Assembly: GCF_046105845.1 (NCBI RefSeq)
Contig: NZ_CP151004.1
Strand: one strand, 5' to 3'
From: Escherichia coli
Lineage (GTDB): Bacteria; Pseudomonadota; Gammaproteobacteria; Enterobacterales; Enterobacteriaceae
DNA length: 64,000 bases
Each line of letters opens with the position of its first letter. The stretch's first letter is position 1. A program made the position numbers and the translations under genes. This document shows, in pieces, positions 10,766 through 14,174 of the stretch. Below the pieces are notes generated by a model, which made no database searches, was not told the origin of the DNA, and saw nothing but the letters and a program-made list of their open reading frames with translations.

Positions 10766-11935
10766 TCAGGCGGTTTCTCTTGCTGTCACTACGCCATTTT
10801 GCGCAGCCCACAGATTCACATCTTCCTTACGAATGGCGGCGGCCATCATGCCGGGGAATAAATCTGGGGTACAGGCAAAGGAGGGAATACCCATGGCGGC
10901 GAGTTTTCCTGCCAGTGACCGGTCGTAAAACGGCGCACCTTCATCGCTTAAGGCCAGCAGGGTAACCACCTGTACGCCGGACTGAATCAACTCACTGGCG
11001 CGTTGCAACAGATTGCGTTCCACCCCGCCTTCGTAGAGGTCGGAAATCAGCACCAGAATGGTATTGCGCGGATCGCGAATCAAAGACTGGCAGTAGCCCA
11101 CCGCGCGGTTGATGTCGGTGCCGCCACCCAGCTGTACGCCAAACAGCAGCTCTACCGGATCGTCGAGCTTCTCTGTCATATCAACGACTGCGGTGTCGAA
11201 AACCACCAGATGCGTTTTTACCGCCGGGAGCGATGCCATTACTGCGCCAAAAATACTGGAATAGACCACCGAGGAGGCCATCGACCCACTCTGGTCGATA
11301 CATAAAATGATCTCCTTTTGCGTGCGTTGAGACTTGCGCCCGTAGCCGATCAGCGTTTCAGGAACAATACTTTTATACTCTTCCTGCCAGTGGCGCAGGT
11401 TGGCGCGAATGGTGCGCTGCCAGTCAATTTCCGCGTGGCGCGGGCGACGATTACGTACCGCACGATTAAGAGCGCCGCTTACCGCGCTACGCATTGGCTC
11501 TTCAAGCTGTTTCATCAATTGCTCGACAACTTTACGCACCACAAGCCTGGCGGTTTCTTTGGTTTTGGCCGGAATTACGCCATTCAGCGACATCAGCGTG
11601 GAGACCAGATGAACATCAGGCTGGACGTTTGCCAGCATCTCTGGCTCCAGCAGCATACTGTGCAAATTAAGACGTTCAAAGGCGTCTTTTTGCATCACCT
11701 GAACCACAGAAGAAGGGAAATACTGGCGAATATCACCCAGCCAGCGAGCGACTTTGGGTGACGATCCACCCGTGCCGCCGCGTAATCCATGTTTACCGTC
11801 TGGCTGATAGAGCGCCGCCAGCGCGGCATCAATCGCGGACTCTCTGGCATCCAGCGCCACGTTACAGGCATTGTCGGCATCTTCTCCAAGGATCAGACGC
11901 CAGCGGCGCAGCCGTTCCATTTCGTTACTCGACAT
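10766..11935 (-). CDS. VWA-domain protein with MIDAS motif (CoxE-like)
   Basis: 389 aa; DxSxS motif in ILCIDQSGSMASS and downstream VLISDLYEGG; N-terminal RWRLILGE typical of CoxE-type VWA proteins; AGGGA SD upstream; 11-nt overlap with upstream gene. Confidence 0.8.
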   Translation of the reverse strand: MSSNEMERLRRWRLILGEDADNACNVALDARESAIDAALAALYQPDGKHGLRGGTGGSSPKVARWLGDIRQYFPSSVVQVMQKDAFERLNLHSMLLEPEMLANVQPDVHLVSTLMSLNGVIPAKTKETARLVVRKVVEQLMKQLEEPMRSAVSGALNRAVRNRRPRHAEIDWQRTIRANLRHWQEEYKSIVPETLIGYGRKSQRTQKEIILCIDQSGSMASSVVYSSIFGAVMASLPAVKTHLVVFDTAVVDMTEKLDDPVELLFGVQLGGGTDINRAVGYCQSLIRDPRNTILVLISDLYEGGVERNLLQRASELIQSGVQVVTLLALSDEGAPFYDRSLAGKLAAMGIPSFACTPDLFPGMMAAAIRKEDVNLWAAQNGVVTARETA

Positions 11936-14174
11936 GATTTTCCCTTTCGTGTGGTGGCAAAGCCAGAATGCGGCGCAGTAGCGGCAGCATTAACGCGGCA
12001 CGCTGTTCATCCCATATACCGCAGGTCTCTTCTTGCTGCGCGACACGCTCGCCCTGCGCGGCGCGTTCGCCTAACTGGCGGCGTTCCGGGCTGGAAAAAC
12101 GGCCGAATGTCCGCCGCAGCATCGGCAGGATCCGGGTGAAGTGATCGTCGTTCAGACCGCTTAGCCAGGCATCGATCAACTGCCATAATTCGCTATTGTG
12201 CAGTAGCACCATCGCGCTGTCGTTGAGGAAACCTTCCGCCCATGCGGCACTTTCCGCCGGGGGATTGGCTGGCGATAGCGCCAGGTTCATCAGCGTGGTG
12301 ATCCGTTCTGTCGTTAACGTTTGCAGATCAAACAGCAGGCGCGTCGCCGTTCCGCGAAGCAGCGCGTGTGCGGTACTGCCCTCTGCCAGCACCATCAACG
12401 CCTGCAACCAGCCCGCCAACAGATCTTCGTTATCCAGCAACCGCAGCGCGGCGTGGGCGTCGATAACTTTTTCTCTCATACTGGCGGCGCTGTCGTCGTT
12501 GAGCGCCGAACAGGCTCCGGGTAGGGCGATGGCGGCGCGCGGGGCGAGGCTCATCAGTACCTGCATTACCATACCAGAGTCGGTCTGGCGCACGTTGCCG
12601 TAGCGGACAATCGCCACCAGTGGTGCCAGGGATTCCAGCAACTGTTCGATATTGCCCTGAGTGGCAGCCAGTGATTCCAGTGTATTGGCGATGGGGGCAA
12701 TCGCGGTCTGTAAATCGGCCAGTAGCACCTGTTGGATAAGCTTTGCCAGTTCCGGCAGCGTGCTGGCGTATTGCGCCCTCACAATGGCATAGCGGGAGCT
12801 GGCCTGCTCAATGCTGTTACCCCAACGGCTGGCGGTAATGATGTTCATTGCCAGTGCCGGTTCCCAGCGCAGCGACCAGACTTCGTGGAACGTCCCTTTG
12901 CTGTTATTTCCTTGTCCAGCCAGACGGCCCCAGGGAATGTCGAGTAAGGTCAGGCGATGCAGTAAATGGCTACGCGCCAGATCGCCGGGGTTGCGCAGAT
13001 CAAGATCCAGCACTTTTTCGCTGGCTTCTGCCTTCAGGCGCAGCGTTTTTTGCTGTTGCGTAATGTCGCGTTGGAGCGGCACGACGGGCGTATCATCCGG
13101 TACGCTTCCCAGCGCGTAGCCGACAATTAACTTCTGGCGAATCATCTGCATTGGCGCGCTTTCGCCCATACACACTACGGTTTGCAGCGCTTCGCAAAGT
13201 TCGTCAAGCCCCGGCTGCGGGTGATGGCGCATAATCGCCAGCGTCTGCGCCAGCCGCGCCGCTTCGATAATGTGGGCGCTGGAACAGTCGAGATCGGCTT
13301 CGCGAAACAGCCTTGCCGCGCGTGACAGCCAGCCGATATCGCGGTGAGAAGCGCCCTGATAACGCCACAGATGATCGTACCATTCCGGTGACACCACCCC
13401 TGCGCCATAACCGCTGGCGCGGCTTAACGCCTCGTAGCTCCAGGGCGTCCAGGCTGCCGCGACCTTGCACTTCGGCAAATTTTTCAGCAGTTCGTTATCA
13501 TTCTTTGCGGGCGGCAGGTTTTCCAGCGCCGGAACGTGCCACGCACCGCAGACTACCGCGATGCGCGAGAAGCCCTCTTTTTTCGCCTGACGTAGCGTCT
13601 TGCGCATATACGCTTCACGCAGTTGATCTCTGGCTGAGTTTCGGGCTTCGGGAGTTGCCTGGCGTAGGGCAATCATCGCCTCGCGAATCGCCTCGAACAG
13701 AGACAAATCATCTTCGCGTTCCTCTACTCTGTGGCTCCACCAGCTTTCCCCATCGGTGTAACCGGCGGCGCGGCCCAGCCAGTCCAGCGGATCGCCGTCG
13801 GGACTGGCTTCAACGGCATCATCGTCATCGCTTTCTTTTTCGTCATCAAGCGCGAACTGATGACTGATGGGCAAGTCCATAAAGCGCACGGCGATATTTT
13901 GCTCAAAACCATAGCGCAGCGCCTGCCATTCCGGGGAGAACGCCGCAAAGGGGTAAAACGCGGCGTGATGTGAGTCGTCCGGGGCATAAATCAGTAGCGC
14001 GACCGGCGGTTGCATCTGTTCATGCTGCATGAAAGGCAGAATGGATTCGCCGTCGGGCGGCCCTTCCACCAGCAGGCAGTCGGGCTGTAGCGTCTCCAGC
14101 GCCTTTCGCAGGCTGCGCGCGCAGCCAGGGCCATGGTGACGGATGCCAAACAAATGAACGGTTTGTTCAGTCAT
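11925..14174 (-). CDS. Large hypothetical protein, 749 aa (possibly YehM/DUF5682-like)
   Basis: Long ORF in GC-rich operon; acidic stretch DDEKESDDDDAVEASPDGD; family assignment from memory of operon architecture only. Confidence 0.7.
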   Translation of the reverse strand: MTEQTVHLFGIRHHGPGCARSLRKALETLQPDCLLVEGPPDGESILPFMQHEQMQPPVALLIYAPDDSHHAAFYPFAAFSPEWQALRYGFEQNIAVRFMDLPISHQFALDDEKESDDDDAVEASPDGDPLDWLGRAAGYTDGESWWSHRVEEREDDLSLFEAIREAMIALRQATPEARNSARDQLREAYMRKTLRQAKKEGFSRIAVVCGAWHVPALENLPPAKNDNELLKNLPKCKVAAAWTPWSYEALSRASGYGAGVVSPEWYDHLWRYQGASHRDIGWLSRAARLFREADLDCSSAHIIEAARLAQTLAIMRHHPQPGLDELCEALQTVVCMGESAPMQMIRQKLIVGYALGSVPDDTPVVPLQRDITQQQKTLRLKAEASEKVLDLDLRNPGDLARSHLLHRLTLLDIPWGRLAGQGNNSKGTFHEVWSLRWEPALAMNIITASRWGNSIEQASSRYAIVRAQYASTLPELAKLIQQVLLADLQTAIAPIANTLESLAATQGNIEQLLESLAPLVAIVRYGNVRQTDSGMVMQVLMSLAPRAAIALPGACSALNDDSAASMREKVIDAHAALRLLDNEDLLAGWLQALMVLAEGSTAHALLRGTATRLLFDLQTLTTERITTLMNLALSPANPPAESAAWAEGFLNDSAMVLLHNSELWQLIDAWLSGLNDDHFTRILPMLRRTFGRFSSPERRQLGERAAQGERVAQQEETCGIWDEQRAALMLPLLRRILALPPHERENHVE

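What the first reader, a model, noticed from the sequence alone, without database searches (positions are those of the whole stretch)
11925..14174. 749-aa unknown protein with acidic insert
Largest protein of the operon, between the ATPase and VWA genes. It has an acidic stretch DDEKESDDDDAVEASPDGD and no motif I recognise. Size and position parallel YehM of the yeh cluster, but that is from memory.
Basis: inference. Interest (0 to 1): 0.5.

Follow-up and report, generated by a model that had tools for sequence, protein, structure and literature searches.

The report
YehM-like protein with TraB-type hydrolase domain
The 749-residue protein is a rare second copy in E. coli of the uncharacterised YehM/DUF5682 family; its front third is predicted to fold like TraB/TIKI-type hydrolases and keeps their key residues, which gives a first testable idea of what this widespread five-gene ATPase cassette does.

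Summary
The ORF is real (window 11925-14174, minus strand, 749 aa) and is the largest gene of a tightly coupled five-gene operon: SWIM, DUF5691, MoxR-type AAA+ ATPase, this protein, CoxE-type VWA protein. Pfam DUF5682 matches end to end (E=8e-267), and the protein is 27% identical to K-12 YehM, with neighbours matching YehL and YehP. The "acidic insert" is not special to this protein: it fills a disordered loop of variable length that is net negative in 91% of the family.

The cassette is colinear in 58 of 80 loci from many phyla, has no conserved sixth gene, and is absent from PADLOC. It occurs in 33 of 5,426 complete E. coli genomes, whereas yehM occurs in 5,332.

Best reading (confidence about 0.5): a cytoplasmic TraB-like hydrolase gated by the MoxR/VWA pair. 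Substrate and biological role remain unknown. The sequence family is known; its function is not.

The parts
11925..14174 (-). DUF5682-family gene (749 aa), the finding; a distant paralog of E. coli K-12 yehM
   Evidence: ORF; Pfam PF18934 full length, E=8.2e-267; 27% identity to YehM, E=1e-41; AF2 model with pLDDT 91.8 and pTM 0.87
13359..14174 (-). N-terminal alpha/beta domain (residues 1-272), predicted TraB/TIKI/ChaN/erythromycin-esterase fold, carrying G10-x-x-H13(-H14), E37, E82, D100, E151, R186-E187 and G210-x-x-H213
13791..13847 (-). Acidic stretch DDEKESDDDDAVEASPDGD (residues 110-128) within the variable loop of residues 103-128
   Evidence: 11 of 19 residues acidic, reached in 2 of 2,000 shuffles; loop 16-72 aa across the family and net negative in 91%; pLDDT below 50 at residues 119-124
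12819..13358 (-). Middle, mostly helical region (residues 273-452) with small beta elements; fold not assigned
11928..12818 (-). C-terminal all-helical repeat region (residues 453-749), HEAT/ARM-like solenoid
14192..15286 (-). MoxR-type AAA+ ATPase (364 aa from the ATG at 15286), YehL-like
   Evidence: 41% identity to YehL, E=5e-78; Pfam AAA_5, E=1.6e-38; Walker A GVPGTAKS; start overlaps the upstream stop as ATGA
10766..11935 (-). CoxE-type VWA protein (389 aa), YehP-like, with an intact MIDAS motif
   Evidence: 37% identity to YehP, E=2e-80; Pfam VWA_CoxE, E=3.6e-52; DQSGS at 214-218; 11-nt overlap with the DUF5682 stop
15283..16887 (-). DUF5691 protein (534 aa from the ATG at 16887), function unknown
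   Evidence: Pfam PF18944, E=4.7e-121; ATGA overlaps at both ends; RefSeq annotation in N96
16884..18206 (-). SWIM zinc-finger protein (440 aa), first gene of the operon
   Evidence: Pfam SWIM, E=1.3e-6, at residues 59-82; colinear in 58 of 80 loci

Best explanation
The gene encodes a cytoplasmic three-part protein of the YehM/DUF5682 family: an N-terminal TraB/TIKI-type alpha/beta domain with a full set of conserved His/Glu/Arg residues, a helical middle region, and a C-terminal HEAT-like solenoid. I propose it is the catalytic subunit, a hydrolase and most likely a peptidase or esterase, of a self-contained five-protein machine. In this model the MoxR-type AAA+ ATPase and its CoxE-type VWA co-factor use ATP to remodel either the hydrolase or its substrate, so that cleavage happens only on demand. 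The solenoid, the SWIM protein and the DUF5691 protein would provide docking or sensing surfaces. The disordered acidic loop inserted in the hydrolase domain is a plausible handle for the VWA MIDAS metal site or for the ATPase ring. Shown here: family membership, operon structure, predicted fold, residue conservation and cassette conservation. Inferred: catalysis, ATP gating, complex formation and the role of the loop. Unknown: the substrate and the biological role.
Against: No sequence-profile method links DUF5682 to TraB or Ere families: Pfam shows no such hit even at E<=10, hhalign against a shallow YbaP alignment gives E=0.19, and the PDB profile search finds nothing. The fold assignment rests on predicted models, not on a solved structure. 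I could not inspect coordinates, so the spatial clustering of the invariant residues is inferred from secondary-structure position only. The superfamily includes non-enzymes: ChaN binds heme, PMT C1/C2 lacks the catalytic set, and the Tetrahymena TraB protein is a respiratory-complex subunit. No experiment on any DUF5682 protein was found. Complex formation among the five proteins is untested.
Confidence: 0.5

Rival explanations
1. The protein is a metal or cofactor carrier in a MoxR/VWA maturation chaperone. The invariant His/Glu/Asp residues would bind a metal or cofactor rather than catalyse hydrolysis, and the ATPase/VWA pair would insert it into a client enzyme encoded elsewhere, as CoxD/CoxE/CoxF do for CO dehydrogenase.
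For: The VWA partner belongs to the CoxE family (PF05762, E=3.6e-52). The ATPase weakly matches GvpN-type MoxR-like ATPases. In the Cox system a third protein supplies copper and is proposed to form a complex with the VWA protein (PMC4240915). ChaN, a heme-binding protein, is the second-best fold match.
Against: Across 80 loci no client or any other gene is conserved beside the cassette: the largest flank cluster covers 4 loci. Dedicated MoxR/VWA pairs normally sit next to their client (my knowledge of norQD, cbbQO and coxDEF). No RGD, LDV or KGD motif in this protein, and RGD in only 23 of 152 relatives. CoxF itself did not appear in any search with this protein. The two-GxxH pattern is that of the enzymatic TraB/TIKI members.
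Confidence: 0.25
2. The protein is a non-catalytic scaffold. The TraB-like domain would be a degenerate binding module and the protein would mainly hold the ATPase, VWA, SWIM and DUF5691 proteins together, with the acidic loop as the MIDAS ligand.
For: About 60% of the protein is helical, with a HEAT-like solenoid typical of scaffolds. The TIKI superfamily contains inactive or structural members such as PMT and the Tetrahymena complex IV subunit. The acidic loop is a family-wide trait, and VWA MIDAS sites bind carboxylates (established knowledge).
Against: The most strictly conserved positions of the whole protein are polar residues at strand ends in the N-domain (R12, H13, E37, E82, D100, E151, R186, E187, H213), invariant across phyla. 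The N-domain is the best conserved region (0.59-0.60, against 0.46 for the solenoid). This pattern is expected for an active or ligand-binding site and not for a pure scaffold.
Confidence: 0.12
3. The N-domain is a histidine-phosphatase-like phosphoesterase (phosphoglycerate mutase/SixA superfamily), with R12-H13 as the RHG-type catalytic pair.
Confidence: 0.08

Closest known systems
E. coli K-12 YehM within yehL-yehM-yehP-yehQ (Pfam DUF5682, PF18934)
   Same: Same Pfam family over the full length. Same order ATPase - DUF5682 - VWA, with homologous partners (41% and 37% identity). Same acidic variable loop. Same invariant residues. Function unknown in both.
   Different: Only 27% identical, and BLASTP aligns only residues 8-541. 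Here the SWIM protein lies upstream and is unrelated to YehQ outside the zinc-finger core, and a DUF5691 gene is added. yehM is in 5,332 of 5,426 complete E. coli genomes, this paralog in 33.
TraB/TIKI/PrgY/GumN/ChaN/erythromycin-esterase superfamily (e.g. E. coli YbaP, EreC, RRSP, HopBA1)
   Same: Predicted fold of residues 1-272. Two GxxH motifs, a Glu after the second strand and a conserved Arg, matching the 2His/2Glu plus basic residue description in PMC6254334.
   Different: No significant sequence-profile similarity. A 26-residue disordered acidic loop and helical insertions interrupt the domain. It is fused to about 480 residues of helical scaffold. It is embedded in a MoxR/VWA operon, a context for which I found no report for this superfamily. 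Activity is untested.
MoxR-vWA 'ternary' conflict systems of Kaur, Burroughs, Iyer and Aravind 2020 (PMC7159879)
   Same: A MoxR AAA+ / vWA pair plus further dedicated proteins in a self-contained operon with patchy, cross-phylum distribution.
   Different: The third component is not VMAP, iSTAND, FtsH or a beta-propeller. The vWA protein carries no effector domain. The paper does not mention YehL, YehM, TraB, Tiki or SWIM. No link to conflict was shown here, and there is no PADLOC hit.
CoxD/CoxE/CoxF maturation system of CO dehydrogenase (PMC4240915)
   Same: AAA+ MoxR-like ATPase, a CoxE-family VWA protein and a third protein proposed to have a hydrolase motif and a metal-binding site.
   Different: No client enzyme next to the cassette. 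DUF5682 is unrelated to CoxF in my searches. No RGD motif. Two extra genes (SWIM, DUF5691).

Membership tests
DUF5682 (PF18934) / YehM family | Full-length match to the family HMM | tested here: met
   Residues 22-737 match model positions 1-727 of 727, E=8.2e-267, 887.7 bits
DUF5682 (PF18934) / YehM family | Direct homology to the named member, E. coli K-12 YehM | tested here: met
   BLASTP: 27% identity over 563 columns, E=1e-41; RefSeq labels yehM 'DUF5682 family protein'
DUF5682 (PF18934) / YehM family | Gene placed between a YehL-like MoxR ATPase and a YehP-like VWA protein | tested here: met
   at least 63 of 80 loci from other phyla keep AAA-DUF5682-VWA adjacent in that order
TraB/TIKI/ChaN/erythromycin-esterase superfamily | Alpha/beta fold with a central parallel beta-sheet, similar to solved members | tested here: met
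   [not shown]
TraB/TIKI/ChaN/erythromycin-esterase superfamily | Two conserved His (GxxH twice) at strand ends | tested here: met
   G10-I-R-H13 after strand 5-11 and G210-A-W-H213 after strand 204-210; H13 in 144 of 144 non-gapped sequences and H213 in 152 of 152; in register with YbaP GSIH and GALH
TraB/TIKI/ChaN/erythromycin-esterase superfamily | Conserved catalytic Glu residues (2Glu) and a conserved basic residue near the site | tested here: inconclusive
   E37 (aligned with YbaP E67), E82, E151, E187 and R186 are invariant. Which of them correspond to the catalytic Glu pair and the Arg of RRSP/Ere could not be checked, because no coordinates or residue-level superposition were available
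TraB/TIKI/ChaN/erythromycin-esterase superfamily | Statistically significant sequence or profile similarity to a member family | tested here: not met
   No TraB, Cofac_haem_bdg or Erythro_esteras hit in Pfam even at E<=10; hhalign against the YbaP alignment gives E=0.19, probability 0.3; the PDB profile search finds none
TraB/TIKI/ChaN/erythromycin-esterase superfamily | Hydrolase (peptidase or esterase) activity | not testable with these tools
   Needs biochemistry
MoxR-vWA ternary conflict systems (Kaur et al. 2020) | Core MoxR AAA+ plus vWA pair | tested here: met
   AAA_5 with a weak bpMoxR hit; VWA_CoxE
MoxR-vWA ternary conflict systems (Kaur et al. 2020) | Third component is VMAP, iSTAND, FtsH, or a beta-propeller fused to the vWA protein; variable effector domains on the vWA protein | tested here: not met
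   The third component is DUF5682; the vWA protein has no extra domain; the paper does not mention YehL, YehM, TraB or SWIM
CoxD/CoxE/CoxF-type cofactor maturation systems | Cassette encoded next to its client enzyme; integrin-type RGD motif on the third protein | tested here: not met
   No conserved neighbour in 80 loci; no RGD, LDV or KGD motif. The VWA_CoxE family itself is matched
Known or candidate anti-phage defence systems (PADLOC-DB 2.0) | Match of any cassette protein to a defence-system model | tested here: not met
   No hit for four proteins; the ATPase gives only P-loop-level hits to IetA (E=0.0015)
Histidine phosphatase superfamily | Best structural match and the RHG catalytic signature | tested here: not met
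   [not shown]

The most novel reading that the evidence does not exclude
The SWIM-DUF5691-MoxR-DUF5682-VWA cassette, and by extension the near-universal E. coli yehLMPQ operon, is an undescribed class of ATP-gated proteolytic conflict or stress system. On sensing a trigger through the SWIM or DUF5691 proteins, the MoxR/VWA pair would license a TraB/TIKI-type peptidase to cleave a host or invader protein.
Probability: 0.2. Interest if true: 0.75.

Novelty: new variant of a known kind. Interest (0 to 1): 0.45.

Why it matters
DUF5682 is a large family: 4,434 clusters at 50% identity have E<=0.001, and it spans many bacterial phyla. It includes yehM, present in 98% of complete E. coli genomes. 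I found no paper that says anything about its function. Assigning its best-conserved domain to the TraB/TIKI hydrolase fold, with specific invariant residues (H13, E37, R186, H213), turns a gene of unknown function into one with a short list of point mutants and activity assays. It also adds a possible fifth architecture to the MoxR/vWA multi-component systems. The gene in this window is an ordinary member of a catalogued family that RefSeq already annotates, so the value lies in the hypothesis for the family and not in this locus.

Tried and rejected
1. Sequence-only links to solved structures: phmmer and a family profile against PDB found nothing meaningful.
3. hhalign of the N-domain against a YbaP (TraB) alignment was not significant (E=0.19). 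The YbaP alignment was shallow because the homolog search returned only close relatives.
4. NCBIfam and PADLOC gave no hit for DUF5682, DUF5691, SWIM or VWA. PHROGs gave only families of unknown function.
5. Literature: a search for 'YehM' alone mostly returned author names. The one paper holding yehL, yehM and yehP together is a genome announcement. The YehQ mentions were an entrapment-database match and a strain list. DUF5682, DUF5691, PF18934 and yehLMPQ gave nothing relevant.
6. A conserved sixth gene (client, toxin or effector) next to the cassette: none found.
7. Phage or plasmid cargo: 1 of 50,697 phage records, an unannotated metagenome contig, and 33 of 72,556 plasmid records, of which 24 are non-mobilizable. 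Rejected.
8. Foreign base composition: GC of 55-60% is similar to the flanking gltBD genes. Uninformative.
9. Domain fusions that might show partners: none among the 120 best relatives.
10. An RGD-type integrin motif for VWA binding: absent.
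Full report
**1. Observation**

Window 11925-14174 holds a 749-codon ORF with an ATG start, on the minus strand. With the starts corrected against the RefSeq annotation of a near-identical E. 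coli locus, the operon on the minus strand reads:
- SWIM zinc-finger protein, 16884-18206, 440 aa
- DUF5691 protein, 15283-16887, 534 aa
- AAA+ ATPase, 14192-15286, 364 aa
- the 749-aa protein, 11925-14174
- VWA protein, 10766-11935, 389 aa

The junctions show translational coupling: ATGA overlaps at SWIM/DUF5691 and DUF5691/ATPase, a 17-nt spacer before the target, and an 11-nt overlap with the VWA gene. The operon lies between gltD and a truncated yhcG.

The acidic stretch DDEKESDDDDAVEASPDGD is residues 110-128 (window 13791-13847). It has 11 acidic residues in 19, a density reached in only 2 of 2,000 shuffles.

**2. Family**

Pfam DUF5682 (PF18934) matches from model position 1 to 727 of 727, E=8.2e-267. 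K-12 YehM aligns at 27% identity, E=1e-41. The neighbours are 41% identical to YehL and 37% to YehP. RefSeq labels both this gene's near-identical copies and yehM as 'DUF5682 family protein'.

The cassette is nevertheless not a copy of yehLMPQ. Its SWIM protein lies upstream and shares only the zinc-finger core with YehQ. A DUF5691 gene (PF18944, E=4.7e-121) is added.

Within E. coli, yehM is found in 5,332 of 5,426 complete genomes. This paralog is in 33, always chromosomal and single-copy, at 99% identity or more, and the list includes strain SMS-3-5. In the eight best-matching genomes the feature next to the cassette is yhcG or its DUF1016 remnant, and in strain N96 gltD lies on the other side.

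**3. The acidic 'insert'**

In an alignment of 75 family members, the segment between the conserved anchors P102 and P129 varies from 16 to 72 residues (median 30; 26 here). It is net negative in 91% of sequences, including YehM. It is the least conserved part of the protein (0.26, against 0.46-0.60 elsewhere). The model predicts disorder, with pLDDT below 50 at residues 119-124. It is therefore a family trait, a variable acidic disordered loop, and not an insertion specific to this protein.

**4. Structure**

AlphaFold2 with the 75-sequence alignment gave a confident model: mean pLDDT 91.8, pTM 0.87. It has three parts:
- an alpha/beta domain, about residues 1-272
- a mostly helical middle region, 273-452
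- an all-helical repeat region, 453-749

Foldseek with the whole model found only non-significant solenoid matches.

PMC6254334 names PMT, HopBA1, Bcr135 and ChaN as structures of the TIKI superfamily. It defines that superfamily by a parallel beta-sheet core, a 2His/2Glu catalytic set and a conserved basic residue.

**5. Conserved residues**

Over 152 sequences (the query, YehM and 150 representatives at 50% clustering), the following are identical in every sequence that is not gapped at that column: R12, H13, E37, E82, D100, E151, R186, E187, G210 and H213. H14 differs once.

G10-x-x-H13 follows strand 5-11, E37 follows strand 33-36, and G210-x-x-H213 follows strand 204-210. These are the C-terminal strand ends, where active sites of such folds lie (inference).

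A local hhalign against E. coli's own TraB protein YbaP is not significant (E=0.19). It does place GIRHHG on GSIHMG, LLVEGP on LIVEAD and VVCGAWH on VAVGALH.

The fold and motif criteria for the superfamily are met. The criterion of significant sequence similarity is not met. I therefore say the domain is TraB/TIKI-like, and I treat common ancestry as probable but unproven.

**6. The cassette across bacteria**

The family has 4,434 clusters at 50% identity with E<=0.001. A scan of species-representative genomes returned at least 574 loci. The best 80 come from Proteobacteria, Cyanobacteria, Chloroflexota, Bacteroidota, Planctomycetota, Verrucomicrobiota, Deinococcota and Armatimonadota.

In 58 of the 80 loci all five genes are present in the same order and orientation, and most of the others are short loci that end near the match. 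In the 25 loci printed, the ATPase (67-80% identity) and the VWA protein (59-80%) are far better conserved than DUF5682 (44-59%), SWIM (32-48%) and DUF5691 (26-39%).

Clustering 983 flanking ORFs found no further conserved neighbour; the largest cluster spans 4 loci. The cassette is essentially absent from phage records (1 of 50,697, an unannotated metagenome contig). It is rare on plasmids (33 of 72,556 records, 24 of them non-mobilizable).

None of the proteins matches a PADLOC defence model, apart from P-loop-level hits of the ATPase. None has a TM-like segment. Sources give its relatives no functional name, and no fused domain occurs in the best 120.

**7. Partner proteins**

- The ATPase is AAA_5/MoxR-like. 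It has Walker A GVPGTAKS, and R-V-E-E at the Walker B position, as in YehL.
- The VWA protein belongs to the CoxE family (PF05762, E=3.6e-52) and keeps the MIDAS DxSxS motif.

YehL is the type of one of seven MoxR subfamilies (PMC3893208).

**8. Mechanism**

The most economical reading is that DUF5682 is a TraB/TIKI-type hydrolase fused to a helical scaffold, and that it works in a complex with the MoxR ATPase and VWA co-factor. PMC7159879 summarises the general logic: the vWA domain captures a peptide of a partner, and ATP hydrolysis by MoxR releases that partner in an altered conformation.

Applied here, the pair would gate the hydrolase or feed it a substrate. The acidic loop is a candidate ligand for the MIDAS site or the ATPase ring. 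SWIM and DUF5691 would provide sensing or docking.

- Shown: family, operon, predicted fold, invariant residues, self-contained cassette.
- Inferred: catalysis, gating, complex formation, role of the loop.
- Unknown: substrate, and whether it is a peptide, ester or phosphoester; biological role.

I put 0.5 on this model as a whole. Individual steps: about 0.99 for family membership, about 0.85 for the fold, and about 0.3 for 'peptidase' specifically.

**9. Rivals**

(a) A metal or cofactor carrier in a maturation chaperone like CoxD/CoxE/CoxF (PMC4240915). The CoxE-type VWA and the ChaN fold match favour this. The absence of any conserved client gene and of an RGD motif count against it. Confidence 0.25.

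(b) A pure scaffold with a degenerate TraB domain. The solenoid and the existence of inactive superfamily members favour this. The strict invariance of polar strand-end residues counts against it. Confidence 0.12.

**10. Novelty and score**

As a system it is an uncharacterised MoxR/vWA multi-component cassette. Its third component differs from the four classes described in PMC7159879, and I found no literature on it.

The TraB/TIKI assignment is, as far as these searches show, not published. It is readily derivable from public structure predictions, and it is a prediction. I rate it a new variant of a known kind, with interest 0.45.

Noticed in passing
window 9760-10574: yhcG is truncated. 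Only its 5' part (ORF 10218-10574, minus strand) matches full-length yhcG of E. coli N96. About 460 bp (roughly 9760-10220) is unrelated sequence carrying a 101-aa ORF (9825-10130, minus strand) with no NCBIfam match.
   Followed up: partly
window 14192-15400: The mechanical ORF for the ATPase starts at a GTG (402 aa) and overlaps the DUF5691 gene by 118 nt. The ATG at 15286 (364 aa) matches RefSeq and gives an ATGA stop/start overlap, so the longer ORF is probably an artefact.
   Followed up: yes
window 14192-15286 (ATPase residues about 154-160): The Walker B position reads R-V-E-E (YehL: R-F-E-E) instead of the usual hydrophobic-DE. It is conserved between the two paralogs, and its consequence for ATP hydrolysis is unknown.
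   Followed up: no
L003-L027 (the 25 loci printed): The ATPase (67-80% identity) and VWA partner (59-80%) are unusually well conserved between E. coli and distant phyla, compared with DUF5682 (44-59%), SWIM (32-48%) and DUF5691 (26-39%). This suggests very strong constraint on the motor pair, or recent horizontal spread.
   Followed up: no
L027:3691-8001 (Diaphorobacter caeni): About 4.3 kb is inserted between the ATPase gene and the DUF5682 gene of an otherwise intact cassette. Its content was not examined.
   Followed up: no
L016:8001-10259 (Acaryochloris marina MBIC11017): A DUF5682 homolog (48% identity) with none of the four partner genes detectable within 8 kb on either side. It may be an orphan copy or have a diverged context.
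   Followed up: no
L025 and L026 (Desertivirga brevis, two scaffolds): The full cassette appears on two different scaffolds with identical coordinates and identities. This is either a recent duplication or an assembly duplicate.
   Followed up: no
H42, NZ_CP137737.1:1867916-1871259 (E. coli HNSQ2209): The K-12-type yehM is split in two by an IS5 family transposase.
   Followed up: no
[not shown]
   Followed up: no
H45, MT835988.1:10644-12758 ('Bacteriophage sp.', human faeces, 14.2 kb): The only phage-collection record with a DUF5682 homolog (29.5% identity, E=1e-76). It is unannotated and may be a mis-binned bacterial contig. PHROGs nevertheless holds families for DUF5682 (phrog_30700) and its VWA partner (phrog_31592).
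   Followed up: partly
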